DNA of 41,346 nt from a virus. Its lineage: Duplodnaviria; Heunggongvirae; Uroviricota; Caudoviricetes. The DNA lies in the IMG/VR virus record IMGVR_UViG_2690316296_000007, positions 1 to 41,346 of that record; one strand, 5' to 3'. Shown one piece after another: positions 1-29,662 of this stretch (positions are counted from its first letter, which is position 1; every line of letters begins with the position of its first letter). The notes beneath the pieces are model-generated. The model worked only from the letters and a program-made list of their open reading frames with translations. It was not told where the DNA came from and searched no databases. Position numbers and translations under genes: made by a program.

Positions 1-301
1 CTATTGCTGGGTAAGATCATTACGACTTGCATAGCCAATGAAGATAAATGTGACGACAAACGGCGCAGCAGTCTTCTTTTCCTTCATACTTTCCCCACCC
101 AGCATGCATACCTTCTACCATAACTGTAGTGAATGTCTGTTATGAGCGAGAAGCGGAAGTTCGTAATTATTATCAGTACAGTGCACCACTAATTATTTTC
201 ACACTGAAAGCATTAAGGTGTGAAGAGGGTTTTTATGCTTGATTTAATTATAAAATTGCAGGAAAGTGACCTTGTATCAGCTGATGATGAGTGAGTAAAA
301 A

Positions 302-1681
302 ATGTGGGAAGATAAGTATATTTGTCATAAATGCGTGAACGATAAATATGTCATGCAGCATATAATAAAAACTGGAAATAATTTTCAGATTTGCTCTTAC
401 TGCAAAAGGAAGCGTAAAAACATCCACCTCAAATATATTCTCAAGATGATGAATGAGGTTTTTGAGTACTACTATGATATATATGAGGATATCTATGATT
501 CCGGGCGCGGTGATAGCGCGCAGGATGTCATCTACGGAGAACTGGGCGTCGAATGGGACGTAGCTGAAGATATTTATGAATTTCTTTGTGATGAATATAA
601 TCCGCATAACGATTATGACTACATCCGGTATAATGACGGGTTTCTTTATCGGCACATAAATCACTATAGCGGAGAGCTTGCGCATACCTGGAGTAAAGCC
701 ACTGACTCCCTTATGAAAGAAACACGATATTTTAACCGTGAAGTTAATGATTTCCTAGATTCACTTTTCAGTGATATCGATAAACTAAAAAACAGAGACA
801 GTAATTCACCGATAAAAACTCTGACTGATGAGGTTCATCTTTTTCGTGCAAGGGTTTTTGAGGACCAAGAGGAAGTAAAGCAAGCCTTGGAGCATCCCGA
901 GAAAAATTTTGGACCTCCCCCAACAACTTTGGCTCGCTCGGGCCGTATGAACGCACAGGGGATTTCAGTATTTTACGGTGCAACCTCAGTGAATTTGGCA
1001 ATTGCTGAAGTAAGGCCGCCCGTCGGCAGTATTGTAGTAACGGCCTGTTTTGTACCGTTACGCGAGCTAAAAGTGCTGGACATTTCTGCCCTTGACTCGA
1101 TTAGTTTCGGCTCAGGTAGTAAATTTGATCCTCAGACTCGCAAAACCAGTGAGCGCGCGATTTTTTTCAGTACGCTTTCCCGTAAGTTGACGCTTCCTAC
1201 TTTTGGAAAAAGGCAGGACAGTGATTACCTCATCACCCAAGTGGTTGCCGATTACCTAGGTGACCGAAATAAATTTAAGCTTGATGGTGTCAGCTTTAAA
1301 TCTACCCAGGTAGATGCCAACGGTGAGGATGCTGAGACAGGATATAATGTCGTTCTGTTTAATAAGTCTTCCGGCGTCAGGCATGCCGCAGATAAATCTC
1401 GCCGATATAATGTTGAGATGTATGAACACATCGAAGATGACCAGTATGCTTTTGTTCCGGAAATTCAGTTGATAGTTGAGGAACAAATAAAACCGAGACA
1501 TATGGGTTCATTTTCATCCTCGCATGACAAAAATGATGCACTACTGTTGAAAACCAACAGTATGACTTATCATAAAATTACTGGTGTAAAATACCAAACA
1601 AGTGAGACGGAGATTCATCAGGGAGATAGCGTTCGAAAACAAGAGCCACCTCAGAAATTCGATGACCTGATTGACTTCTGA
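302..1681 (+). CDS. RES-domain protein with N-terminal zinc-ribbon-like extension (candidate NAD-targeting toxin/defence effector)
   Basis: 459-aa ORF; N-terminus has two CxxC pairs (CHKC ... CSYC); central segment HLFRARVF ... SGRMNAQGISVFYGATSVNLAIAEV fits the RES-domain pattern (conserved Arg, then GRxN...Y...A..E); AT-rich relative to the structural genes. Confidence 0.6.
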   Translation: MWEDKYICHKCVNDKYVMQHIIKTGNNFQICSYCKRKRKNIHLKYILKMMNEVFEYYYDIYEDIYDSGRGDSAQDVIYGELGVEWDVAEDIYEFLCDEYNPHNDYDYIRYNDGFLYRHINHYSGELAHTWSKATDSLMKETRYFNREVNDFLDSLFSDIDKLKNRDSNSPIKTLTDEVHLFRARVFEDQEEVKQALEHPEKNFGPPPTTLARSGRMNAQGISVFYGATSVNLAIAEVRPPVGSIVVTACFVPLRELKVLDISALDSISFGSGSKFDPQTRKTSERAIFFSTLSRKLTLPTFGKRQDSDYLITQVVADYLGDRNKFKLDGVSFKSTQVDANGEDAETGYNVVLFNKSSGVRHAADKSRRYNVEMYEHIEDDQYAFVPEIQLIVEEQIKPRHMGSFSSSHDKNDALLLKTNSMTYHKITGVKYQTSETEIHQGDSVRKQEPPQKFDDLIDF

Positions 1682-1905
1682 TCATCCGTTATATCAGGGT
1701 AAACTATTATTAAAGATGATGTGAGGGCAGTTAAGGAAGGAATTCACCCGGTATCGCGTTACTGGCGTCCCTTGATACCAAGCGGGCAGATTGCTGAACA
1801 GACACGTCTGTTTGAGCGAGGAGTTGGCTTTGTAGAATGCTTCAAGAGATAAAAACGCCTTATTTACGCAACTTGCTGCGAAAGGACCATGGCTTTGCTA
1901 GCTTC

Positions 1906-1945
1906 GGCACAGAGCGGACTGTCAGATTAGGCTTTACTCTGTGCC
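1906..1945. repeat. Hairpin motif copy 1 (GGCACAGAGCGGAC core; 9-bp inverted repeat ggcacagag/ctctgtgcc)
   Basis: Shares a 14-nt core with the copy at 3104..3127; sits in a GC-rich island between AT-rich cassettes. Confidence 0.4.
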
Positions 1946-2335
1946 ATAGATATGTAAGCTCACACCAGAGCTCATACAACTTCTTGCGGCATTTCCGGCC
2001 ATTCAGGATTTGCAGGATCCACACGACTGACCAGAACGCTGTAGCGTTCCCATGCCTCCAGTCGACTGCGCTCCTCATCTGTTGCCATATTCAGCCTGAC
2101 AGCGCGCTCCAGCGGCAAAATCACGGATTCAGCATCTGCTAGAAGTCTGGCTTTCCGATAGCCCATTTAAAGGATAACTTCCAAAGCAGTGGCAACTAAC
2201 ACTATTTATATCATGAGCAAGGCTTTTCCAGTTTTCATGCTCTCAGGGCATAAAAGTATCAACTATTTCTAATCCATGCCGATACTAACAAAAATACCAC
2301 CATAAAATATAATTAAGAAAATGTTAAGGATCTAC

Positions 2336-3010
2336 ATGAAAAGCTATTTAAAAGGTGTTTGGGAATACTTCGCGAGTCACATGTTGTTTATGTATCTCGG
2401 CTCAGTCTCTTTTGCATGGATTGATATCTGGTTTTTTAAAAAAATTGAACCATCAACAATTACTGCAACAGTTTCAACAATAACACTTGGACTAGCGATT
2501 TATGCATTAACAAGGGTAAATGAATGGATTAAAAACAAAAAATCAGAAAAGGCTTTCGAGAGAACTACATTGTTCATCGACAGCATGTTTCGATCAAAGG
2601 ACTTAAATCATCAATGTTATCAATCACTTATTTCTATACAGCCAAGAATAAAAAGTGAGAACCCCATACTCTACAAGCATCTCACTACAAGTGGGAGGGA
2701 GTTACTTTCTGAGTCAAAAGATTTACGATTCGAATTAGTTGCAATTCGGGATAGTTTTGGTTTGTGGAAAATCAAACCTAATCATTCAGACCTTCTAAAT
2801 AATCTCATCACCACCTACACTGCTCTTGTTGCACAATTTAATATCATTTATATTTTAATTGATGAATTAGAGCGTGGTGAAAGGGTAGTTTCTGAGTCAT
2901 CATGGGATAGTTATATCGGAATGATGGCAAGCGCTTATTCAAATTACCATGATCAGTTCGAAATATTCAAAGATTGTAGCTACAATGAACTTTTTAAAAT
3001 CATTAAATAA
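2336..3010 (+). CDS. Hypothetical membrane protein (two N-terminal TM helices)
   Basis: ORF 2321..3010; the ATG at 2336 is preceded by AAGGA; hydrophobic stretches SHMLFMYLGSVSFAWIDIWFF and TATVSTITLGLAIYAL; AT-rich. Confidence 0.45.
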   Translation: MKSYLKGVWEYFASHMLFMYLGSVSFAWIDIWFFKKIEPSTITATVSTITLGLAIYALTRVNEWIKNKKSEKAFERTTLFIDSMFRSKDLNHQCYQSLISIQPRIKSENPILYKHLTTSGRELLSESKDLRFELVAIRDSFGLWKIKPNHSDLLNNLITTYTALVAQFNIIYILIDELERGERVVSESSWDSYIGMMASAYSNYHDQFEIFKDCSYNELFKIIK

Positions 3011-3103
3011 TAATTGTCGTGTATTGCGATCATATCACCAGCGATACCCATGACATTATGGTGACCTGCTCTCCATTGATTAACACATTGTGATGTCAGT
3101 AAC

Positions 3104-3127
3104 GTCCGCTCCTGGCACAGAGCGGAC
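3104..3127. repeat. Hairpin motif copy 2 (gtccgctc-ctggcaca-gagcggac), between convergent cargo genes
   Basis: Perfect 8-bp stem; tccgctcctggcaca is shared with the copy at 4646..4668; may act as a bidirectional terminator. Confidence 0.45.
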
Positions 3128-3203
3128 GATATCACTGAGCTGAAGGTCCGCTGAGAGCGAGGAGCAGAAGTTATATTAAAAATTAATTAGCACGTTGATT
3201 TAA

Positions 3204-4502
3204 TCACCATGAAGGATAATTAGGTTTTTTTCCTCTTAAAAGAGATACTTTGTCAATTATCTCAACAGAAGCAGTTCTATAATCCTCCTGCTGAAGTAGG
3301 TGAACTGCATAATCTCTCAATTCTTGCAAAGTGGAAAAGCCGTTACTTTCGATGAGTATTATAATTATCTTAATATACTTAAAGATTTGTTCAGAGGATT
3401 CGTTCGCGTTGACGTTAAGTTCGTAAAAATCTTTACCATCATGAACAAGCTTGTTTCTTACGTCAGTATATAACTCGTCATAAACTTCTAGGTTTTTCTT
3501 AAATTTGATTAGTGAGTTATTACATGTAAGTGCTGCAATGTAGGTCCTTTGCTTCCATCCTTTCCAATTTGGGTCAATATTAGCAAGACCATCAAGTGCA
3601 AAGACTAGGTTTAGAAATTGTGATTCCGCGCCAATTGAATAAAAAGATTGCCTACATGCCCTAACTACGGAGCTAACTAATTTTGAAAGTTCATTTTCAA
3701 CGACTCCATCGTAGATAGAAGATAAATATTGCAACCCAGGGTAATACAAGCTGTCAACCTGAGGGCCTAGCCAATTATTACTCACAGCAAGGGGTCTTGA
3801 TATTCCACTTATCTTAATTGGTTTAAGATGAGTCCTCTCACGAGGAATGATTTCTACATCATAAAATCCGTCAGAGCGTTGACCTGCAGGATTAGGGGTA
3901 TATTCCATACGTGTAAATGAGCTGTGAGAAAATCTGACTAAATCAAGCGCATATTCAGCTATAGATAAACACATGTTTATAACATGGTTGTTATGATCAA
4001 TGCTTGAATTAAGTTTTAATAAATCAATATATGGTAGGTCACAGTTAAACTGTATATACGAACCATCTTGCTCTGATAATCGCTTATGTGACTCTTCATC
4101 AAATTGTCTTCCGCAATAAAAAATATACTTTCCGATCTCGATGGTTTCCTGAATGAAAATCTTCTCAATCGGCACAATAACTATGCACTCCATATTTTTG
4201 TTTTTACCCTCTAATTCAGCTAATTCTAGGTTAGAGCTTCTTGATTTAGCTAACTCTATTTCTACCCACTCAAAGCATATTGAGAAGTCTTCTAGAATTT
4301 CGATACTGCTTTTTTGATAACTATCCTTGGTATATTTAAATGTAATGCCATCTCCTTCAGGATAGGCACTGGCCCAATATCCCATATCTCTTAACTTTTT
4401 TAGAGATGTTGAGATATCGTCGACTTTATTAATAAAATCCTCTTTTCGCCATAAAACATTGCCAGTGTAGTTTTCGTACGGTGGTATTAAACGAGCTTTC
4501 AT
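3204..4502 (-). CDS. Hypothetical 432-aa cargo protein with Rx4H (HEPN-like) motif; candidate abortive-infection effector
   Basis: Long AT-rich ORF with AAGGAAG 6 nt upstream of the ATG; C-terminal region contains RNKLVHDG (R-x4-H); flanked by the repeated hairpin motif. Confidence 0.5.
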   Translation of the reverse strand: MKARLIPPYENYTGNVLWRKEDFINKVDDISTSLKKLRDMGYWASAYPEGDGITFKYTKDSYQKSSIEILEDFSICFEWVEIELAKSRSSNLELAELEGKNKNMECIVIVPIEKIFIQETIEIGKYIFYCGRQFDEESHKRLSEQDGSYIQFNCDLPYIDLLKLNSSIDHNNHVINMCLSIAEYALDLVRFSHSSFTRMEYTPNPAGQRSDGFYDVEIIPRERTHLKPIKISGISRPLAVSNNWLGPQVDSLYYPGLQYLSSIYDGVVENELSKLVSSVVRACRQSFYSIGAESQFLNLVFALDGLANIDPNWKGWKQRTYIAALTCNNSLIKFKKNLEVYDELYTDVRNKLVHDGKDFYELNVNANESSEQIFKYIKIIIILIESNGFSTLQELRDYAVHLLQQEDYRTASVEIIDKVSLLRGKKPNYPSW

Positions 4503-4645
4503 ATAACTTCCTTATTATCCAAGAGGATGTGACTGAAATTTTTATCAGACTTATCTACAATAATATAAATTGACATGAAAAATCTACTCAACAATTAACC
4601 GTTATGATTTGCTTGCGACGACTAAAACATGCCGATGGGTCGCAT

Positions 4646-4668
4646 CCGCTCCTGGCACATAGCAGTCC
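4646..4668. repeat. Hairpin motif copy 3 (ccgctcctggcacatagcagtcc), degenerate
   Basis: About 19 of 24 positions identical to copy 2; lies between the pin 3' end and the 3204..4502 gene. Confidence 0.4.
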
Positions 4669-4834
4669 GAGAGACAGTGGCGTAAAGTCATGGAGGATCG
4701 GTGGGAGGAGGCGCTAATCCTTTCATACAAAAAATATGTAAAATCAATAACGGCTGTAAATCATTCAATACTCGCACTATCGGAAGTTCACCAGCCAACC
4801 GCAGCACGTTCTTGCATACGACGAGCCTGCGGTT

Positions 4835-5389
4835 TCATTTATCTCCGACCGGAAACATCTTATACAGTGTCGATACACCAACATCATAGATGATCGCTAC
4901 CTTCTGGCGAGGAATTCCTGCTGCAATTAATCGTCCGGCCTGCTCCCATTGTTCTGGTGTAAGTTTGGGGCGACGTCCACCAATTCGTCCCTGTGCGCGA
5001 GCAGCTTCCAGTCCAGCTTTTGTTCGTTCAACAATCAGTTCACGCTCCATTTCAGCCAGGGCACCCATCACATGAAAGAAAAAGCGCCCCATTGGGGTAC
5101 TGGTATCAATTGAATCCGTCAGACTACGAAAGTTGATGCCTCGTTCGCGCAACTCCTCCACCAGCACGACAAGATGCCGCATACTGCGCCCCAGTCGGTC
5201 CAGTTTCCAGACCACCAGCGTGTCACCTGCCGATAATGTCCTGAGCAGCTTTTTCAGTCCTGGTCTGTCGGACTTTGTACCGCTTATCTTGTCTTCAAAA
5301 ATCAGCTCACATCCTGCACAGTTCAGCGCATTACGTTGTAGATCGGTATTCTGGTCATTTGTTGATACACGTACATAGCCAATAAGCAT
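4835..5389 (-). CDS. pin: Serine-recombinase DNA invertase (Pin/Gin/Hin/Cin family)
   Basis: N-terminus MLIGYVRVSTNDQNTDLQ with the catalytic Ser in the YVRVS context, resolvase-like core, C-terminal HTH; start moved to the ATG at 5389 (track ORF extends to 5425). Confidence 0.9.
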   Translation of the reverse strand: MLIGYVRVSTNDQNTDLQRNALNCAGCELIFEDKISGTKSDRPGLKKLLRTLSAGDTLVVWKLDRLGRSMRHLVVLVEELRERGINFRSLTDSIDTSTPMGRFFFHVMGALAEMERELIVERTKAGLEAARAQGRIGGRRPKLTPEQWEQAGRLIAAGIPRQKVAIIYDVGVSTLYKMFPVGDK

Positions 5390-5415
5390 GTTAAATCCCC
5401 CTGGTAAAAGCAGGA

Positions 5416-5952
5416 ATGATGCCATTTGCTTGTTATTTCTTCATTTTCATAAACGTTGGTTTGGGAGAAGGTTCGGCATTACCCGTTGGTGTGCCTGTTC
5501 CGTGGCCTTCAGCCACTCCGCCAACAGGCTGGCTGAAATGCAATGGTGCGCCTTTTTCTGCCGAAGAGTATCCGGAACTGGCAAAAGTTTATCCGACAAA
5601 TAAATTGCCAGATTTACGCGGTGAGTTTATTCGTGGCTGGGATGATGAACGTGGTGTGGATAGTGGGCGAACTCTGCTTTCAGCGCAAGGAGATGCTATT
5701 CGAAACATTACTGGCGGTTTTGGTCAGTTGCGCGTAAACAGCGAAATAAATGCAATTGTTGATGTTCAAAGTGTGAGTGGTGCTTTTTACGGAGGTACCT
5801 CAGTCCGGAATAACATCAACGTATCTATGACATACGCTAATGACCGAAAAATCCGACAAGATGTTCACTTCTCGGCGGCAAATGTTGTTCCAACAGCAAA
5901 TGAAAATCGTCCACGTAACATCGCCTTTAATTATATTGTGAGGGCCGCATGA
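5416..5952 (+). CDS. Alternative tail-fibre C-terminal cassette (Sv'-like), silent in the present orientation
   Basis: Encodes NVGLGEGSALPVGVPVPWPSATPPTGWLKCNGAPFSAEEYPELAKVYP, typical of the variable fibre tip in invertible segments; the crossover site lies just inside its 5' end; no independent expression expected. Confidence 0.7.
   Translation: MMPFACYFFIFINVGLGEGSALPVGVPVPWPSATPPTGWLKCNGAPFSAEEYPELAKVYPTNKLPDLRGEFIRGWDDERGVDSGRTLLSAQGDAIRNITGGFGQLRVNSEINAIVDVQSVSGAFYGGTSVRNNINVSMTYANDRKIRQDVHFSAANVVPTANENRPRNIAFNYIVRAA
5449..5474. repeat. Invertase crossover site 1 (gix/hix-like)
   Basis: ataaacgttggtttgggagaaggttc; its reverse complement matches the site at 7301..7325 in a ~20-nt core (ttctcccaaacca[a/c]cgttt). 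Confidence 0.7.
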
Positions 5953-12665: not shown

Positions 12666-13196
12666 TTAGCGAGTCAGAAACAACGAATCTTTATACTTTT
12701 GCTGTTGTTCATTTAAATACTTAGCTGTTTCATCGCTGGCAAATGGAAATATTACCGTATTTTTAGGCATGGTAATTTCTTTTTTGTCCAGCGTCAGAGT
12801 AAACATAGGAACATACTGAGCAGAGTAACGCACCGCAGAAACGAGCTCTAGTTTAGACTCTTCAATAACACTTAAATTATCCAGGCTAACTTTCTCTTCA
12901 TCTTTTTTCTTTGACGCATTTAAAGTTTTTATTACTTTATTTAATTTCTCCTGAAAATCCTCCTTAAAGTTTTCAGGATTGCCGTCGACAACAAGAATCT
13001 GTTCGCCCTGATTATCTGGAAAAATAATCTTTGCACTTATCAATTTATTTTCTTTATAAACATCACCAAGTTTTATGGCTCCTCCAGATAACTGAATAAT
13101 ATGTTCATCTTTAAAGGAGATGTTGCCAGAGATTATGAGAGATGAAAAAATAGCCGCTGCTCCAAGAATTACACTTGCTGTGATATAGCCTTTCAT
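12666..13196 (-). CDS. Moron: predicted secreted/periplasmic protein, unknown function
   Basis: AT-rich 176-aa ORF between tape measure and DNA circulation genes; signal-peptide-like N-terminus MKGYITASVILGAAAIFSSLIISG; lysine-rich; own terminator. Confidence 0.55.
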   Translation of the reverse strand: MKGYITASVILGAAAIFSSLIISGNISFKDEHIIQLSGGAIKLGDVYKENKLISAKIIFPDNQGEQILVVDGNPENFKEDFQEKLNKVIKTLNASKKKDEEKVSLDNLSVIEESKLELVSAVRYSAQYVPMFTLTLDKKEITMPKNTVIFPFASDETAKYLNEQQQKYKDSLFLTR

Positions 13197-25550: not shown

Positions 25551-25700
25551 TGCATAATCCTCTTGGATGGTTCGCGTACGATACGTGGCATCCTTCTCAG
25601 AATCGAATCGCACTCCATTCCGGTTTTGCCATAAACGATCTTTTATGCTTCGCTGGATGTAGTTGATAGTTGTTGAAACTCAATGAACAGGAGTTCACAA

Positions 25701-26036
25701 ATGAATAGTTATGAATGGGAATGGCTTTTGAACAAAGATGACACCCTATACTTTTTCCCCGTAGGCCATTCTGTAGAAGGTAATTACAAAATTCACTTTG
25801 AGTTGAGCGGTAGTTGTAACCTTAGAGTCTCTGATGCTGAATGGCATGGTAAACCTGTACTGCTGTTCGAATACTTCGATGAAGATGATGACCGCCCTGC
25901 AATAATCGAAATATTAGAAACAACCACTACAACTGTGGAGGCGATGATCGCACATCTGAATAGTATCGATAGTATTTACCATGAACCGATTTACAAAGCT
26001 GTTTACGAGTGGGCTGTAAAGTTTTTCTATCGATGA
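25701..26036 (+). CDS. Hypothetical acidic cargo protein
   Basis: AT-rich plus-strand ORF opposite to the late operon; CAGGAG before the ATG at 25701; acidic stretch FEYFDEDDDRPAIIEILE. Confidence 0.5.
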   Translation: MNSYEWEWLLNKDDTLYFFPVGHSVEGNYKIHFELSGSCNLRVSDAEWHGKPVLLFEYFDEDDDRPAIIEILETTTTTVEAMIAHLNSIDSIYHEPIYKAVYEWAVKFFYR

Positions 26037-26079
26037 TACTTCGTTATCTTTCTGGCATTCACAATACCTTTACATATTA

Positions 26080-26706
26080 ATGACATGCCAGCACAATACT
26101 GTCACTTACAACCGTTCGGATTACCTAGAGAAAAGTATGATTCAGGATTTACTGATCGAAGCAATTAGTCACGATAGGATGCATAAAAAGTTAAATGAAC
26201 TGAATGGCTACTTCTACAATCGCAAACATGAAACACAAATACGTGATGAGTTAGTTGTTATACTCAATCAAATCAGCACACTAACTGCTTTAAGTGAGCA
26301 TCCAAAACTCGGTATCGGCGCTGTTGACATATCACTTTATAACCAGTCGATATTAACGTCTGAACATAATGGCAATGTTGCAACCATCGAGATAAAACAC
26401 CATTACCCAAAGGATTTACTTTATCGGCAAGTTCAAGAAGACATCATTTCCGATATTTCAAGAGTAATAGTTTCACCAACTACACATTTTATCCATATAA
26501 TCCAGCAAAGAACCAGGATTAATACTCCTTCTTTTGGCCAAGTGAAATTCCTTGAACGTGATGCAAGTGATATCAGCACTTATGTGCAATACCTTGAAGA
26601 GCTAAGTTCATTTCCCAGTAATTTTCATAAAAAAAGTATATGTATTGAGGTACTTGGTGAAATTATGTCGACATATACCTTTAACGTATATTCATTTGAC
26701 AACTGA
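26080..26706 (+). CDS. Hypothetical cargo protein with possible PD-(D/E)xK nuclease signature
   Basis: AT-rich ORF (alternative start 26137); GAVDISLY ... TIEIKHH fits the D ... ExK spacing. Confidence 0.45.
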   Translation: MTCQHNTVTYNRSDYLEKSMIQDLLIEAISHDRMHKKLNELNGYFYNRKHETQIRDELVVILNQISTLTALSEHPKLGIGAVDISLYNQSILTSEHNGNVATIEIKHHYPKDLLYRQVQEDIISDISRVIVSPTTHFIHIIQQRTRINTPSFGQVKFLERDASDISTYVQYLEELSSFPSNFHKKSICIEVLGEIMSTYTFNVYSFDN

Positions 26707-26727: not shown

Positions 26728-26985
26728 TTAATGGTTAGTTCTCTCTGCATCTATTTTACGAATATCAGCTTTATCCCGATTGCAGTTAGCCAGTGCAGAC
26801 AACAGGCTCACATTCAGCTCCAGGCTGGCACCATACGTCAGCGGATTGGGTATAAACGGTACAGGAGTATCAGAAGTCAGGCTGGCTGGCAGTGGTGCCA
26901 CCGGAGCGCTCACGTAAACCGTTCGCGAATTTCCGCAACCGGTCAGCAGCGGCAGCAGGCACAGGACGTGAAGCACAATCATCAT
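26728..26985 (-). CDS. Rz1-like outer-membrane lipoprotein (o-spanin)
   Basis: ORF in another frame overlapping the 3' end of Rz; lipobox LLTGC; Pro-rich. Confidence 0.6.
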   Translation of the reverse strand: MMIVLHVLCLLPLLTGCGNSRTVYVSAPVAPLPASLTSDTPVPFIPNPLTYGASLELNVSLLSALANCNRDKADIRKIDAERTNH

Positions 26986-27262
26986 CCGCAACAGCCACTT
27001 TGATATCTTCCTGGGTTCTCTGTGACTCCAGTGCGATCTGCTGTTTTGCATGCTGGTTAACCTCTATAACTGTATTGACGATTTGCAGTGATTGCAGGAC
27101 GTTACGGGTAATGGCTGTTGCAGATTCAACATTTTGTACAGCCTCATCAGCACGTTTCTTTTCGTGCTGATATTTGCTGTAGTAGTGGTTGGCAGACCAG
27201 ATGAAAGAACCGATGACAGTAAAGAAGAATGCAGCGATAACCAGCTTATAGCTCAACTTCAT
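26870..27262 (-). CDS. Rz-like i-spanin
   Basis: 130-aa ORF after the endolysin; N-terminal TM helix then a charged helical region. Confidence 0.7.
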   Translation of the reverse strand: MKLSYKLVIAAFFFTVIGSFIWSANHYYSKYQHEKKRADEAVQNVESATAITRNVLQSLQIVNTVIEVNQHAKQQIALESQRTQEDIKVAVADDDCASRPVPAAAADRLRKFANGLRERSGGTTASQPDF

Positions 27263-27722
27263 TTACCCCCCCACCAGCCTCTTTAAACCGGGAAATCAGG
27301 TCACCGATTTTATGTTCATACTGACCGTAACCTGCACCAGGTAACGACGCCCAGATATTGCTGCAACGATCGATAGCCTGACGGATATCACCGCGATCAA
27401 TCATCGGTAAAGCGCCACGCTCTTTAATCTGCTGCAATGCCACTGCGTCCTGGCTTTTGGGGGAGAAGTCTTTCAAACCAAGCTGTTTACGGTAAGCATC
27501 CCACCAGCGTGAAAGAAGCTGATAACGTCCGGCGGCTGTTGATTTGAGTTTGGGGTTTAACGTGACAAGTTTGCGAGGGTGATCAGAGTAATCAGTAAAC
27601 AGTTCGCCGCCAACAATAACATCATAACCGTGATTACGTGTCGGTTGTCGCCCGTTATCCGTTCCTTCTGACCAAGCCACCATATCAAGGAAAGCTTTAC
27701 GCTGGGGATTTAGCACCTGCAT
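27246..27722 (-). CDS. R: Endolysin (lambda R-like lytic transglycosylase)
   Basis: NPQRKAFLDMVAWSEGTDNGRQPTRNHGYDVIVGGELFTDYSDHPRKLVTLNPKLKSTAAGRYQLLSRWWDAYRKQLGL closely matches lambda R as recalled. Confidence 0.9.
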   Translation of the reverse strand: MQVLNPQRKAFLDMVAWSEGTDNGRQPTRNHGYDVIVGGELFTDYSDHPRKLVTLNPKLKSTAAGRYQLLSRWWDAYRKQLGLKDFSPKSQDAVALQQIKERGALPMIDRGDIRQAIDRCSNIWASLPGAGYGQYEHKIGDLISRFKEAGGGVNEVEL

Positions 27723-27725
27723 AAA

Positions 27726-28052
27726 TTACTCCTTAGAACCACCAAACTTATTACCGATTACTCTCATTGCAGCCCCACGAATAGCATCGACACCGATCAA
27801 CCCAACGCCACCACCAATGGCAACAGAAAGAGATTTAGGCCATCCGACATACTCAAGAGCGGATGCAAAAGTCAGCGTCAGAGCACCACAGAGCAAAATC
27901 TCGAGCGTTTTTCGTTTCCAGCCCCCACCACCGCCAAAATATGCAATGCGCAAGCCAGCCATAACAATCGACATAATCACTGCGCCCAGCGGTGTGTCTC
28001 CACGCCACCAGCTCTGGACCAACTCCAACCAAGTATTTGGGTTATGAGGCAT
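27726..28052 (-). CDS. Holin (three predicted TM segments)
   Basis: 108-aa ORF immediately upstream of the endolysin; hydrophobic segments with a charged C-terminus. Confidence 0.65.
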   Translation of the reverse strand: MPHNPNTWLELVQSWWRGDTPLGAVIMSIVMAGLRIAYFGGGGGWKRKTLEILLCGALTLTFASALEYVGWPKSLSVAIGGGVGLIGVDAIRGAAMRVIGNKFGGSKE

Positions 28053-28331: not shown

Positions 28332-29153
28332 ATGAATTTTTCTTACACAAAACAGGATGGTCATACCAAACGCTGCCTTGTCAGAGCATTCAATGTTAAT
28401 ACAGCAACAACAGATATACTCTTCGACCAAATTTCAAATTCTGGTAAATTTATTGTTGACACTGTTTTTAAAATAAACAATGAACAACATTTAATACTGA
28501 AAGAGTTTTCTACAAATAATAAAAGTCATTACTTACACTTTGCATTATATAATCCAAAAGAACAAGTATCGATCACACCAAAAATAAAAACCGCAAGCGA
28601 TCTTCTTGATGTTGAAAACCTTGACAATTTGCACGCTTTTTTATATGTAAAAGAAAATAAAATTGCATCTCTAATGCAAATATCAACAAATTGGTGTGAA
28701 ATTAAAATCGCTAAAATATTCGAGCAATTTGGTATAAAAATAACACCATCAGCAATTTTGCAAAAAAATGTCATTCAACGAATTAAAGATGATAAACTTA
28801 GGGCTTTGCATCTTAATATTAGCGTTGATGCTTCTAATTTTGTGAAAACGCCCAGCTTTATAGACTCTATTTTTCAGAAAGAACCCAAACTTAAAGCTAG
28901 AGGTATTTCAGGACATTTAACTCTTGATGCAAAAGGAAATGCTGAACTAGCACAATCTATTGAAACCAACCCTAGTGGTTGGATAAATGATTTGGATTCT
29001 GATTTTTATATAGAAACAAAAAAAGGAGAGAAAATAACTAGTGACGACATTAAGTTAACAAAAGTTTATTATACAGTCCCTTATGGTTCAAAATCTATTA
29101 ATTCAAAATATGCGAAAGAAATTCTAGAGGACTTTGCTCAAAAAGAGCTATAA
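28332..29153 (+). CDS. Cargo protein A, 273 aa, soluble, unknown function
   Basis: AT-rich ORF with strong Shine-Dalgarno, antisense to the late operon; no recognisable motif. Confidence 0.55.
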   Translation: MNFSYTKQDGHTKRCLVRAFNVNTATTDILFDQISNSGKFIVDTVFKINNEQHLILKEFSTNNKSHYLHFALYNPKEQVSITPKIKTASDLLDVENLDNLHAFLYVKENKIASLMQISTNWCEIKIAKIFEQFGIKITPSAILQKNVIQRIKDDKLRALHLNISVDASNFVKTPSFIDSIFQKEPKLKARGISGHLTLDAKGNAELAQSIETNPSGWINDLDSDFYIETKKGEKITSDDIKLTKVYYTVPYGSKSINSKYAKEILEDFAQKEL

Positions 29154-29176
29154 TATACTAAAAAAAGGAGGCTAAC

Positions 29177-29662
29177 ATGTTAAAATCACTCAATTACTCA
29201 GGTATATCATTAACTTTGTTAAACATTTTAGCCTCAGTATTATTTTCAATTTTCCTCACACATACTTTAACGAACAATACTGACGCATTAAATTTGGTCG
29301 CCAATGTATTTTCTATCCTATCTGGTTTTCTTTTGTTGGTTATCACAATGTCTGGTGAAAACTCTACTCTGATGAACAACTTAAGCAAATTAGACGCTGC
29401 AAATCAAGAAATACGTTTCCTCATGCGTTTTAACAAATATTATGCTTTATTCTTGTTATATATTTTAACATTAGCTTTAATTTTTGTTTTTTATTTAATA
29501 TCCAAGGATAAAGAAAACACATCTCAATACTTCATTCTGTTTAAGAAGTCAATTGGTTACATTATCTCTTTTTTAACTTGTTTTTCTTTTATACAATCAA
29601 CATTCATCCCACTAAAAATAAAAGAATTATTTAAAGAGAAAAGACAACTTAATAAAAAATAG
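29177..29662 (+). CDS. Cargo protein B, 161 aa, four predicted TM helices
   Basis: AAGGAGG Shine-Dalgarno; four hydrophobic segments; ends at the terminator. Confidence 0.55.
   Translation: MLKSLNYSGISLTLLNILASVLFSIFLTHTLTNNTDALNLVANVFSILSGFLLLVITMSGENSTLMNNLSKLDAANQEIRFLMRFNKYYALFLLYILTLALIFVFYLISKDKENTSQYFILFKKSIGYIISFLTCFSFIQSTFIPLKIKELFKEKRQLNKK

What the first reader, a model, noticed from the sequence alone, without database searches (positions are those of the whole stretch)
2336..3010. Orphan two-TM membrane protein between the RES gene and the HEPN-like gene
An AT-rich gene with its own ribosome-binding site, convergent with the 3204..4502 gene. Small membrane proteins at defence hot spots are often effectors or superinfection-exclusion factors. 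Function cannot be read from the sequence.
Basis: inference. Interest (0 to 1): 0.4.

Follow-up and report, generated by a model that had tools for sequence, protein, structure and literature searches.

The report
Mobile membrane-protein cassette in defence hotspots
This is a real but rare gene for a small inner-membrane protein that moves as a self-contained 1-kb cassette between prophage and defence-island hotspots of enteric bacteria; it is most likely a single-gene anti-phage protein, but that has never been tested.

Summary
Bases 2336-3010 (+) hold a genuine 224-aa gene with 33.6% GC, its own promoter-like site and ribosome-binding site, convergent with 3204-4502. The protein has two N-terminal membrane helices. 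The second runs straight into a cytoplasmic four-helix bundle (AlphaFold pLDDT 89.8).

It matches nothing in Pfam, NCBIfam, PHROGs or PADLOC and no solved structure beyond generic helix bundles. The family is tiny (36 clusters among 1.84 billion proteins) and, wherever a source organism is recorded, Enterobacterales.

The membrane part is under strong purifying selection (dN/dS 0.04-0.07). The bundle evolves much faster (0.31-0.35; 13.5% against 33% family-wide identity).

The gene travels alone as a ~0.97-kb cassette (2159-3127). The same ends appear in a P2-like fun(Z) hotspot, this pinE-adjacent prophage end (mcrA's slot in e14), a Citrobacter prophage end, and E. coli and Klebsiella islands. 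There it sits beside Septu, Shango, Gabija and Mokosh-like genes.

Best reading (confidence about 0.4): a stand-alone anti-phage membrane sensor-effector. No function has been tested, and several copies are broken.

In passing, I found a conserved junction element of about 75 nt that punctuates cassette arrays across Enterobacterales.

The parts
2159..3127 (+). Autonomous single-gene cassette: promoter, gene and 3' hairpin. It recurs with the same ends in unrelated contexts.
   Evidence: Megablast breakpoints are 2159/2155 to 3127/3118 in L002 (E. coli island), L003/L007/L009 (P2-like phages), L010 (Citrobacter prophage end) and L012 (Klebsiella island).
2285..2313 (+). Sigma-70-like promoter: -35 CTAACA, 17-nt spacer, -10 TATAAT (2308-2313).
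   Evidence: Matches 10 of 12 positions. The TATAAT is conserved upstream of the P1-like homologues of 45% identity. Consensus match only; no transcript data.
2326..2330 (+). Ribosome-binding site AAGGA, 5 nt before ATG 2336.
   Evidence: Read from the sequence. TAAGGAT is kept in L004; L005 reads AAAGGGT at that position.
2336..3010 (+). Coding sequence: 224 aa plus the stop codon.
   Evidence: not chance; dN/dS 0.21; the exact protein is present in 15 E. coli contigs, always named 'hypothetical protein'.
2366..2437 (+). TM helix 1 (residues about 11-34), with invariant G22 and a polar residue at D30.
2453..2515 (+). TM helix 2 (residues about 40-60), rich in Ser/Thr/Ala/Gly, with one conserved face.
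   Evidence: Conservation over residues 40-80 has a period of 105 degrees, permutation p about 0.01.
2516..2590 (+). Basic juxtamembrane segment (residues 61-85: V61, W64, K68, F74). It is continuous with TM2 and forms the start of bundle helix 1.
   Evidence: A single helix spans residues 39-99 in both AlphaFold models. W64 is invariant; V61, K68 and F74 are at least 90% conserved.
2591..2971 (+). Fast-evolving part of the cytoplasmic four-helix bundle (residues 86-212).
2972..3007 (+). C-terminal clasp (Y216, F220). It forms a short strand that pairs with the strand after W144.
   Evidence: DSSP assigns strands at 146-148 and 220-222. W144 and F220 are at least 90% conserved.
3100..3175 (.). 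Imperfect palindromic junction element of about 75 nt. Its right arm (3143-3172) carries the recurrent motif GGTCYGCTNTGAGCGARGAGCGGAAGTT. Its left arm is also an internal hairpin, CGTCCGCTC-N8-GAGCGGACG.
   Evidence: 28-nt arms, 79% complementary. DNA fold -16.6 kcal/mol, z = -3.35. Motif hits.
1972..2157 (-). Relic of a P2-type tail-fibre-assembly gene (3' part). Its truncated end abuts the left edge of the cassette.
   Evidence: RefSeq annotates this pseudogene in L001 and L003. The same 250 bp recurs intact downstream of the cassette in P2-like phages.
132..161 (+). Another copy of the junction motif, at the left edge of the neighbouring RES cassette. A degenerate copy lies at 1805-1831.
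   Evidence: nhmmer E = 7e-5 and 0.02.

Best explanation
The gene encodes an inner-membrane protein with an N-in/C-in hairpin of two marginally hydrophobic helices. The second helix continues unbroken into the first helix of a cytoplasmic four-helix bundle. A small strand clasp (the W144 region paired with the C-terminal Y216/F220) closes the bundle. The gene appears to have its own constitutive-type promoter and behaves as a stand-alone cassette of about 0.97 kb.

I propose it is a single-gene anti-phage module of the abortive-infection or exclusion type. In this model the fast-evolving cytoplasmic bundle recognises a phage-made product. The change passes along the continuous TM2-bundle helix to the strongly conserved hairpin. 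The hairpin then self-associates through its conserved small-residue face and permeabilises or depolarises the inner membrane, stopping phage growth.

Shown here: the gene is real and under selection; the predicted architecture; the split in evolutionary rate; stand-alone mobility; residence in validated defence hotspots and islands.

Inferred only: sensing, the trigger, oligomerisation, membrane damage, and any phage phenotype at all.
For: (1) Context. Every place recovered is a prophage variable slot or an island.
- In this window it lies next to pinE at the prophage end, where e14 carries mcrA.
- In P2-like phages it lies in the fun(Z) slot between the tail-fibre assembly gene G and the sheath gene FI. 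[quoted passage not shown] - It also lies at a Citrobacter lambdoid prophage end at icd, after the lambda P gene in Enterobacter, and at prophage ends in Pantoea, Enterobacter and a metagenome contig.
- In a Klebsiella island it lies between Shango SngA/SngB plus Septu PtuA/PtuB and a Mokosh-like helicase. In an E. coli island it follows GajA, a TIR protein (PDC-S35) and a DUF4238 protein.

(2) It acts alone. The 2159-3127 cassette has the same ends everywhere and no constant neighbour. The RES cassette also occurs on its own (window 143-1907), and the pinE-proximal two-thirds of the 432-aa gene recurs with pinE in a genome that lacks this ORF.

(3) Modular evolution.
- dN/dS is 0.04-0.07 for codons 1-85 and 0.31-0.35 for codons 86-224.
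- Family-wide identity is 33% for the membrane part and 13.5% for the bundle.
- Tandem paralogues in Pantoea share 52% identity over the first 98 residues and nothing detectable beyond.

(5) Cassettes bounded by the same junction motif are often defence genes. Of 10 sampled, 2 are PD-T4-7, 1 is a full-length McrA-type enzyme, 1 is an HNH protein and 1 is a KAP/STAND NTPase.
Against: - There is no experiment, and no homology to any validated defence protein (PADLOC: 0 hits).
- The bundle's dN/dS is below 1, so faster evolution may reflect relaxed constraint rather than an arms race.
- Hydrophobicity of the two helices is marginal in this allele.
- The gene is rare: 9 of 5426 complete E. coli genomes. 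Several copies are broken: a nonsense codon in L001, an IS1 insertion in H29, a 1-nt deletion in the Klebsiella island copy, and a 146-aa truncated form on 30-37 contigs. This fits toxicity, but it fits dispensability equally well.
- Prophage moron slots also carry non-defence cargo. Three of the 10 sampled motif-bounded cassettes look metabolic.
Confidence: 0.4

Rival explanations
1. It is a superinfection-exclusion protein that blocks phage DNA entry at the inner membrane, in the manner of T4 Imm, P22 SieA or HK97 gp15. The infected cell would survive rather than being killed.
For: It is a prophage-borne inner-membrane protein with its own promoter, found in temperate phages of four or more types. 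The conserved hairpin could bind a conserved host or phage membrane component.
Against: The periplasmic loop is only about 5 residues. The variable, presumably specificity-determining part is cytoplasmic, which is the wrong side for meeting an incoming tail or ejection proteins. The gene also sits in non-phage defence islands. No similarity to SieB was found (hhalign probability 0.6%).
Confidence: 0.17
2. It is a lysogenic-conversion or moron gene unrelated to phage defence. Examples would be a modulator of a host membrane process or stress response, or an anti-defence or inter-element competition factor.
For: The same slots carry non-defence cargo: 3 of 10 sampled motif-bounded cassettes look metabolic. 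There is no match to any defence model. The gene is rare and often broken.
Against: It lies immediately beside Septu, Shango, Gabija and Mokosh-like genes in two islands, and in the fun(Z) and mcrA slots. The modular pattern of a conserved effector-like part plus a variable part, and the tandem divergent paralogues, are typical of immune sensors.
Confidence: 0.22
3. It is a functional partner (antitoxin, immunity protein or effector) of the neighbouring RES protein or of the 432-aa HEPN-like protein.
For: It lies between the two in this window. RES and the ORF travel together in P2-like phages (block 135-3127).
Against: The cassette occurs without RES and without the 432-aa gene in L002, L024, L010, L012, L025 and all distant homologues. 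RES occurs alone at window 143-1907. A tail-fibre-assembly relic separates RES from the ORF, which shows that two separate insertions were stacked.
Confidence: 0.05
4. It is a holin-like or lysis-timing membrane protein serving the prophage's own lysis.
For: It has an N-in/C-in hairpin of two marginally hydrophobic helices followed by a highly charged cytoplasmic segment, as in class II holins (textbook knowledge of holin classes).
Against: The window's lysis cassette lies elsewhere (a small two-helix membrane protein at 27726-28052 that I read as a holin candidate, a lysozyme-like ORF at 27246-27722, and overlapping ORFs at 26728-27262 in the Rz/Rz1 arrangement; all three assigned by eye, with no family search run). 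The gene is about three times the size of such holins, it occurs in islands without phage genes, and it has no PHROG hit.
Confidence: 0.04

Closest known systems
Two-helix membrane effectors of signalling defence systems (SLATT/DUF4231 family; CBASS and Pycsar 2TM effectors)
   Same: A hairpin of two membrane helices is thought to kill or arrest the cell by damaging the membrane, and the genes lie in defence loci. These are the nearest functional analogues for the conserved N-terminal module.
   Different: Those effectors depend on a partner enzyme that makes a nucleotide signal, and they carry a ligand-binding domain. Here there is no such partner in any context, and the attached domain is a four-helix bundle. 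Sequence support is absent: DUF4231 hits have E = 0.13-0.18 in 2 of 32 members, below threshold. A SLATT protein in BFVD ranks only 38th, with probability 0.14.
Prophage exclusion membrane proteins (lambda RexB, lambda/P22 SieB, P22 SieA, T4 Imm)
   Same: They are encoded by temperate phages, expressed in the lysogen, sit in the inner membrane, and protect against other phages.
   Different: No sequence relationship was found (SieB hhalign probability 0.6%; no Pfam or PHROG hit). RexB has four helices and needs RexA. Imm is 83 aa. None has a C-terminal four-helix bundle (from my own knowledge of these proteins).
Four-helix-bundle ligand-binding domains of chemoreceptors and sensor kinases (Tar/Tsr, PcaY, TorS; Pfam 4HB_MCP)
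   Different: Those domains are periplasmic, inserted between two membrane helices, dimeric, and coupled to HAMP or kinase-control modules. Here the bundle follows both helices, is predicted to be cytoplasmic and has no output domain. There is no Pfam match, and no Foldseek PDB hit reaches E = 1e-3. The fold is generic.
McrA of e14 and Fun(Z) of P2 (positional analogues)
   Same: They occupy the same variable slots: mcrA next to pinE at the e14 end, and fun(Z) between G and FI in P2. Both are single-gene anti-phage or anti-DNA functions. A full-length McrA-type gene was found between two copies of the same junction motif (L124).
   Different: The proteins are unrelated: McrA is an HNH nuclease of 277 aa, and Fun(Z) is a soluble protein of 528 aa.
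Class II holins / pinholins
   Same: They share the N-in/C-in two-helix hairpin with weak hydrophobicity and a charged C-terminal tail.
   Different: This protein is about three times larger, lies outside the lysis cassette, and also occurs outside phages.

Membership tests
SieB (Pfam PF14163, superinfection exclusion protein B) | Sequence or profile similarity to SieB | tested here: not met
   No Pfam hit at E <= 1. hhalign of the 32-member family profile against lambda SieB gives probability 0.6%.
SLATT / DUF4231 2TM effectors | Significant match to a SLATT-clan model | tested here: not met
   Only DUF4231, at E = 0.13-0.18 in 2 of 32 members (12.7-13.2 bits against a cut-off of 24.7). The window protein has no hit.
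SLATT / DUF4231 2TM effectors | Genomic association with a SMODS, SLOG, cyclase or other signal-generating partner | tested here: not met
   No such gene is adjacent in any of the distinct contexts examined.
Known or candidate defence systems in PADLOC-DB v2.0.0 | HMM match to any component model | tested here: not met
   0 hits for the window protein at E <= 1. Among 32 members there are only scattered single hits. The strongest is LeoA at E = 7e-7 in one member; I did not identify that member or the matched region. The rest are at E >= 0.003.
Cargo of validated prophage or island defence hotspots (a location class, not a protein family) | Sits in a slot that holds proven defence genes in related elements, and beside recognised defence systems elsewhere | tested here: met
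   The pinE-adjacent slot holds mcrA in e14. The P2 G-FI slot holds fun(Z) (PMC9519451; PMC13586616). Neighbours are confirmed as PtuA/PtuB, SngA/SngB, MkoC-like and GajA.
Anti-phage defence system (functional class) | Reduces phage infection when expressed | not testable with these tools
   This needs plaque and liquid-infection assays. No paper in the searched library mentions the protein accessions.
4HB_MCP-type sensor domain | Four-helix up-down bundle fold | tested here: met
4HB_MCP-type sensor domain | Periplasmic location between two membrane helices, Pfam 4HB_MCP signature, downstream signalling module | tested here: not met
   The bundle follows both helices and is predicted to be cytoplasmic by the positive-inside rule. 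There is no Pfam hit, and the protein ends at residue 224 with no output domain.
Class II holin | Small protein (about 70-110 aa) encoded in the lysis cassette beside the endolysin | tested here: not met
   The protein is 224 aa. The window's lysozyme-like ORF and candidate holin lie at 27246-28052, assigned by eye. No PHROG hit.
RES-Xre type toxin-antitoxin pair | Obligate co-occurrence with the RES gene | tested here: not met
   The cassette is found without RES in six or more contexts, and RES is found without it.

The most novel reading that the evidence does not exclude
The gene would found an unrecognised family of stand-alone anti-phage proteins, in which a conserved two-helix membrane effector is fused to a rapidly diversifying cytoplasmic four-helix-bundle sensor. 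It would also be one cargo of a cassette-exchange system not described in the library I searched. In that system, palindromic junction elements of about 75 nt (core GGTCYGCTNTGAGCGARGAGCGGAAGTT) punctuate same-orientation arrays of one-gene or one-operon cassettes. The elements would mediate shuffling of these cassettes among P2-, P1-, lambda- and Mu/e14-like prophages and genomic islands across Enterobacterales. That would be integron-like in layout but without an integron integrase.
Probability: 0.18. Interest if true: 0.8.

Novelty: new variant of a known kind. Interest (0 to 1): 0.5.

Why it matters
If the cassette protects against phage, it adds a very compact (675-nt) single-gene system with a new architecture. 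Its split into a conserved membrane part and a variable bundle makes sensor-swap experiments straightforward. The tandem divergent paralogues offer natural specificity variants.

The junction element may matter more. It marks cassette boundaries in the P2 reference genome (upstream of fun(Z)), in this prophage, and in islands of many enterobacterial genera. It could therefore explain mechanistically the very fast 'swapping' of defence genes reported for P2 and other mobile elements (PMC13586616). It could also serve as a sequence tag for finding new defence cassettes.

If the cassette has no phage phenotype, the gene is one more hypothetical prophage moron.

Tried and rejected
- **Curated family libraries.** Pfam, NCBIfam, PHROGs and PADLOC give nothing for the protein itself. 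Scanning all 32 family members against Pfam and PADLOC gives only scattered sub-threshold hits.
- **Solved structures by sequence profile.** Only low-complexity, coiled-coil-type noise (best E = 0.016 to a designed protein).
- **SieB relationship.** Rejected.
- **P2 Fun(Z).** It is a different, 528-aa protein, so it is only a positional analogue.
- **Other sequence collections.** tblastn against INPHARED phages and PLSDB plasmids found no match. The GTDB representative scan with the protein alignment found no confirmed locus, and the wide alignment was too diverse for pattern design.
- **Rfam on 1-5500.** Nothing credible.
- **Intrinsic terminator scan.** None found after the gene, so the 3' hairpin is not a classical terminator.
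- **Literature.** Searches for the protein accessions and for the junction-motif sequence found no paper.
- **Recent recombination as the cause of N-terminal conservation.** Rejected: the N-terminal 85 codons differ at 23-24 synonymous codons between clades (83% nucleotide identity), so this is purifying selection, not shared DNA.
- **Integron attC reading of the junction element.** The size and palindromic shape are similar, but the R''/R' consensus fits poorly and no integron integrase is nearby. I left this open and make no claim.
Full report

Yes. An ORF runs from ATG 2336 to the stop at 3008-3010 on the + strand (224 aa). A second in-frame ATG at 2321 would add five residues.

In DNA this AT-rich, an open frame of this length is not a chance event. 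The cassette's longest stop-free run is 234 codons. In 5000 shuffles the mean was 72 and the maximum 192. The probability of 224 open codons is about 6e-8.

The ORF has 33.6% GC, against 51% for the phage body (profile).

AAGGA (2326-2330) lies 5 nt before ATG 2336. A 10-of-12 sigma-70-like site has CTAACA starting at 2285, a 17-nt spacer and TATAAT at 2308-2313. That places the transcription start at about 2320, on top of the upstream ATG, so 2336 is the likely start. RefSeq annotates the same 675-nt gene in other strains. The TATAAT box and TAAGGAT are kept upstream of the L004 homologue, which is only 45% identical; L005 keeps TATAAT but reads AAAGGGT. The gene is convergent with 3204-4502.

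**2. The protein**

The two most hydrophobic 19-residue windows lie at about residues 10-20 and 40-47 in nearly all 32 family members. They are only marginally hydrophobic in this allele, at +3.2 and +1.9 kcal/mol on the Hessa scale (Kyte-Doolittle). Eight Lys/Arg residues follow TM2, and the loop between the helices is about five residues. By the positive-inside rule this gives N-in/C-in with a cytoplasmic C-terminal domain (the rule is textbook knowledge, and the topology is an inference).

- AlphaFold with 11 sequences gave pLDDT 77. With 32 family members it gave pLDDT 89.8 and pTM 0.74.
- The model has helix 2-34, a turn, and then one unbroken helix 39-99 that is both TM2 and the first helix of a four-helix bundle (other helices 110-142, 151-179 and 187-212).
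- Two short strands (146-148 and 220-222) tie the C-terminus to the loop after helix 2.
- Invariant or nearly invariant residues are G22, V61, W64, K68, F74, W144 and F220.
- Conservation along residues 40-80 has helical periodicity (105 degrees, permutation p about 0.01). One face of TM2 and the juxtamembrane helix is therefore conserved.

**3. Is it a known family?**

No.

- Pfam, NCBIfam, PHROGs and PADLOC give no hit at E <= 1.
- Scanning all 32 members gives only scattered sub-threshold matches. These include DUF4231 of the SLATT clan at E = 0.13-0.18 in two members.
- A profile search of PDB sequences gives noise.
- BFVD holds one full-length structural analogue, an uncharacterised 196-aa protein of a metagenomic myovirus.
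- Lambda SieB is unrelated (hhalign probability 0.6%).

The family is very small. An exhaustive HMM search of 1.84 billion cluster representatives found 36 proteins at E <= 1e-3. All full-length ones are about 215-265 aa with the same layout. A word-indexed search of 5.8 billion clusters found 35. Wherever a source name exists, it is an Enterobacterales genus (Escherichia, Citrobacter, Enterobacter, Klebsiella, Pantoea), and every name is 'hypothetical protein'. In complete E. coli genomes the gene occurs in 9 of 5426. It is absent from the INPHARED phage and PLSDB plasmid collections.

**4. Evolutionary pattern**

Between the E. coli clade and the P1-like clade (45% identity overall), the first 85 residues are almost invariant. 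This is selection, not recent DNA exchange. Those 85 codons differ at 23-24 synonymous and 12 non-synonymous codons, with 83% nucleotide identity.

| Comparison | Codons 1-85 | Codons 86-224 |
|---|---|---|
| dN/dS, window vs Citrobacter | 0.07 | 0.31 |
| dN/dS, between two P1-like alleles | 0.04 | 0.35 |
| Family-wide mean pairwise identity (residues 11-85 vs 86-224) | 33% | 13.5% |

In Pantoea agglomerans two family members sit in tandem. They share 52% identity over the first 98 residues and nothing BLASTP can detect afterwards.

So the protein has a constrained membrane and juxtamembrane module joined to a fast-changing bundle. The bundle's dN/dS is still below 1, so positive selection is not demonstrated.

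**5. Where it lives**

The window is an E. coli prophage with a Mu-type baseplate and tail module and an e14-type invertible tail-fibre segment with pinE. It abuts the chromosomal paoABCD genes and a LysR pseudogene. The AT-rich block 1-4500 is the terminal cargo region.

In e14 of K-12, the gene in that position next to pinE is mcrA. In related prophages the slot holds other cargo, including a restriction endonuclease and a GIY-YIG protein.

Megablast shows that the block is made of independent pieces. The RES gene alone covers 143-1907, the ORF alone covers 2159-3127, RES plus ORF covers 135-3127, and the pinE-proximal two-thirds of the 432-aa gene plus pinE covers 3605-5472.

The ORF cassette keeps the same ends (2155/2159 to 3118/3127) in five unrelated settings:

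- **(a)** P2-like phages, between the tail-fibre assembly gene and the sheath gene. This is the fun(Z) slot of P2. Vassallo et al. call it a second defence-enriched P2 locus (PMC9519451), and Moura de Sousa et al. report a tail-gene hotspot (PMC13586616).
- **(b)** This pinE-adjacent slot.
- **(c)** Two different islands of one E. coli strain. One copy is next to a DUF3800 protein (PDC-M04A). The other directly follows GajA with a UvrD-type helicase, a TIR protein (PDC-S35) and a DUF4238 protein.
- **(d)** The end of a Citrobacter lambdoid prophage at icd.
- **(e)** A Klebsiella island near smpB. There it lies between Shango SngA/SngB plus a helicase and Septu PtuA/PtuB on one side, and a Mokosh-like helicase on the other.

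More distant members lie in P1-like phage-plasmids after a UmuC-like gene. Others lie after the lambda P gene of an Enterobacter prophage, at prophage ends in Pantoea, Enterobacter and a metagenome contig, and in a Pantoea element that carries a phage-type RNA polymerase. No neighbouring gene is constant, so the gene acts alone or with host or phage factors.

In the window, the 186-bp relic of a tail-fibre assembly gene (1972-2157, -) ends exactly at the cassette's left edge. The same 250 bp follows the cassette intact in P2-like phages. The RES + relic + ORF block was therefore assembled in a P2-type fun(Z) hotspot and later moved here.

**6. Most likely function**

The evidence points in one direction:

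- residence in slots that hold proven defence genes;
- direct adjacency to four recognised defence systems in islands;
- stand-alone mobility;
- its own promoter;
- a conserved membrane hairpin joined by a continuous helix to a diversifying cytoplasmic bundle;
- tandem paralogues that differ only in the bundle.

All of this fits a single-gene sensor-effector. In that model the bundle recognises a phage product in the cytoplasm. The hairpin, probably after self-association through its conserved face, then damages the inner membrane (abortive infection). I put this at about 0.4. Any anti-phage role, including entry exclusion, I put at about 0.55-0.6.

Steps shown: gene, architecture (predicted), selection pattern, context. 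Steps inferred: sensing, oligomerisation, membrane damage, phenotype.

Against it:

- There is no experiment, and no homology to a validated system.
- The bundle may simply be less constrained.
- Broken copies are frequent: an in-frame stop in L001, an IS1 insertion in H29, a 1-nt deletion in a T-run that scrambles TM1 in the Klebsiella island copy, and a 146-aa truncated form on 30-37 contigs. These fit a costly gene, but also a dispensable one.

Rivals are entry exclusion (0.17), a non-defence moron (0.22), partnership with RES or the 432-aa neighbour (0.05), and a holin-like role (0.04).

**7. A second observation: the junction element**

The cassette's right edge lies in an imperfect palindrome of about 75 nt (3100-3175). 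It has 28-nt arms that are 79% complementary, and a DNA fold z-score of -3.35. Its right arm carries a motif, GGTCYGCTNTGAGCGARGAGCGGAAGTT.

The motif recurs at these places:

- at the left edge of the RES cassette (132-161), and in degenerate form at 1805-1831;
- to the left of the ORF cassette in L002, L010, L012, L024 and L025, and to its right in L010;
- in the P2 reference genome, upstream of fun(Z) (P2 17429-17458).

In L002 four copies alternate with four single-gene cassettes. In L012 the order is motif, Septu, motif, ORF.

About 1200 of 5426 E. coli genomes carry 1-4 copies, all in unannotated intergenic DNA of islands.

Most hits are in Enterobacterales. Sixteen are an identical 53-mer on contigs of unrelated taxa, most simply a shared contaminant.

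Among 127 copies in 90 loci:

- 6% fall inside ORFs of at least 120 aa, against 67% of random positions;
- adjacent copies share orientation in 35 of 37 pairs;
- median spacing is about 1.3 kb.

Ten sampled cassettes include two PD-T4-7, one full-length McrA-type enzyme, one HNH protein and one KAP/STAND NTPase. Three look metabolic.

I found no paper containing the motif, and the 2026 study of P2/P4 hotspot turnover does not mention one. I cannot tell from sequence whether the element is a recombination site, a homology patch for exchange, or a regulatory or terminator structure.

**8. Verdict**

The gene is a new architecture within a known kind of thing (prophage- and island-borne membrane proteins that act against phages). 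It has moderate interest in itself. The interest rises if the cassette-junction element proves to be functional.

Noticed in passing
window 3100-3175, 132-161, 1805-1831; L002 4840-4869, 6446-6473, 6887-6914, 7940-7970; L012 7098-7127, 9770-9800; L020 (phage P2) 429-458: A conserved junction motif, GGTCYGCTNTGAGCGARGAGCGGAAGTT, forms the right arm of an imperfect palindrome of about 75 nt. It marks cassette boundaries in prophage hotspots and islands. It is intergenic (6% of copies inside ORFs, against 67% of random positions) and same-oriented (35 of 37 adjacent pairs). It forms arrays with a spacing of about 1.3 kb, is spread across Enterobacterales, and is present upstream of fun(Z) in P2. 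No paper in the searched library contains the sequence.
   Followed up: partly
window 1972-2157 (-) and repeats at 1906-1919 / 3114-3127: A relic of a P2-type tail-fibre-assembly gene ends exactly at the cassette's left edge. The 14-mer GGCACAGAGCGGAC is repeated at the ends of the RES and ORF cassettes. This shows that two cargo insertions from P2-type fun(Z) hotspots were stacked before the block moved into this prophage.
   Followed up: yes
L013 10001-10801 and 10842-11567 (Pantoea agglomerans): Two family members lie in tandem. They share 52% identity over the first 98 residues (membrane module) and have no detectable similarity in the C-terminal domain.
   Followed up: partly
L001 8288-8989; hit H29 (NZ_CP157152.1); L012 about 10070: Inactivated copies: an in-frame stop codon (E. 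coli VTB97420v), an IS1 insertion (E. coli UTAK-5), and a 1-nt deletion in a T-run that frameshifts TM1 (Klebsiella). A 146-aa truncated form is also found on 30-37 contigs.
   Followed up: partly
L002 8178-8852 and L024 5239-5913 (E. coli CU42ET-1): One strain carries two identical copies of the cassette (same protein accession) in two different genomic islands.
   Followed up: no
window 3204-4502 (-): The 'HEPN-like' neighbour has no Pfam, NCBIfam or PADLOC hit. Only an Rx4H motif (RNKLVH) supports the label. It too appears to be a separate cassette: its pinE-proximal part (3605-5472, with pinE) recurs in a genome that lacks the ORF, and the junction motif lies between it and the ORF.
   Followed up: partly
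window 12666-13196 (-); 25683-26706 (+); 28332-29662 (+): These are further AT-rich inserts (GC 0.28-0.39) inside the prophage. One is a 176-aa protein with an N-terminal hydrophobic segment, between the tape-measure and DNA-circularisation genes. Another is a pair of 117 and 208 aa. The third is a 273-aa protein plus a 161-aa multi-pass membrane protein next to the lysis genes. All are candidate morons that I did not examine.
   Followed up: no
L033, L037, L040, L044, L050, L051, L062, L067, L082, L088, L100, L105, L112, L117, L132, L136: Sixteen GTDB contigs from unrelated phyla, many under 1.5 kb, carry an identical 53-mer that closely resembles window 118-165. The simplest explanation is contamination of those assemblies by one shared enterobacterial or vector sequence.
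   Followed up: no
window 302-1681 (+): The RES protein also matches HEPN/RES N-terminal domain 1 weakly (E = 7.8e-4, below the cut-off). It moves as its own cassette (143-1907), found alone in several E. coli genomes.
   Followed up: no
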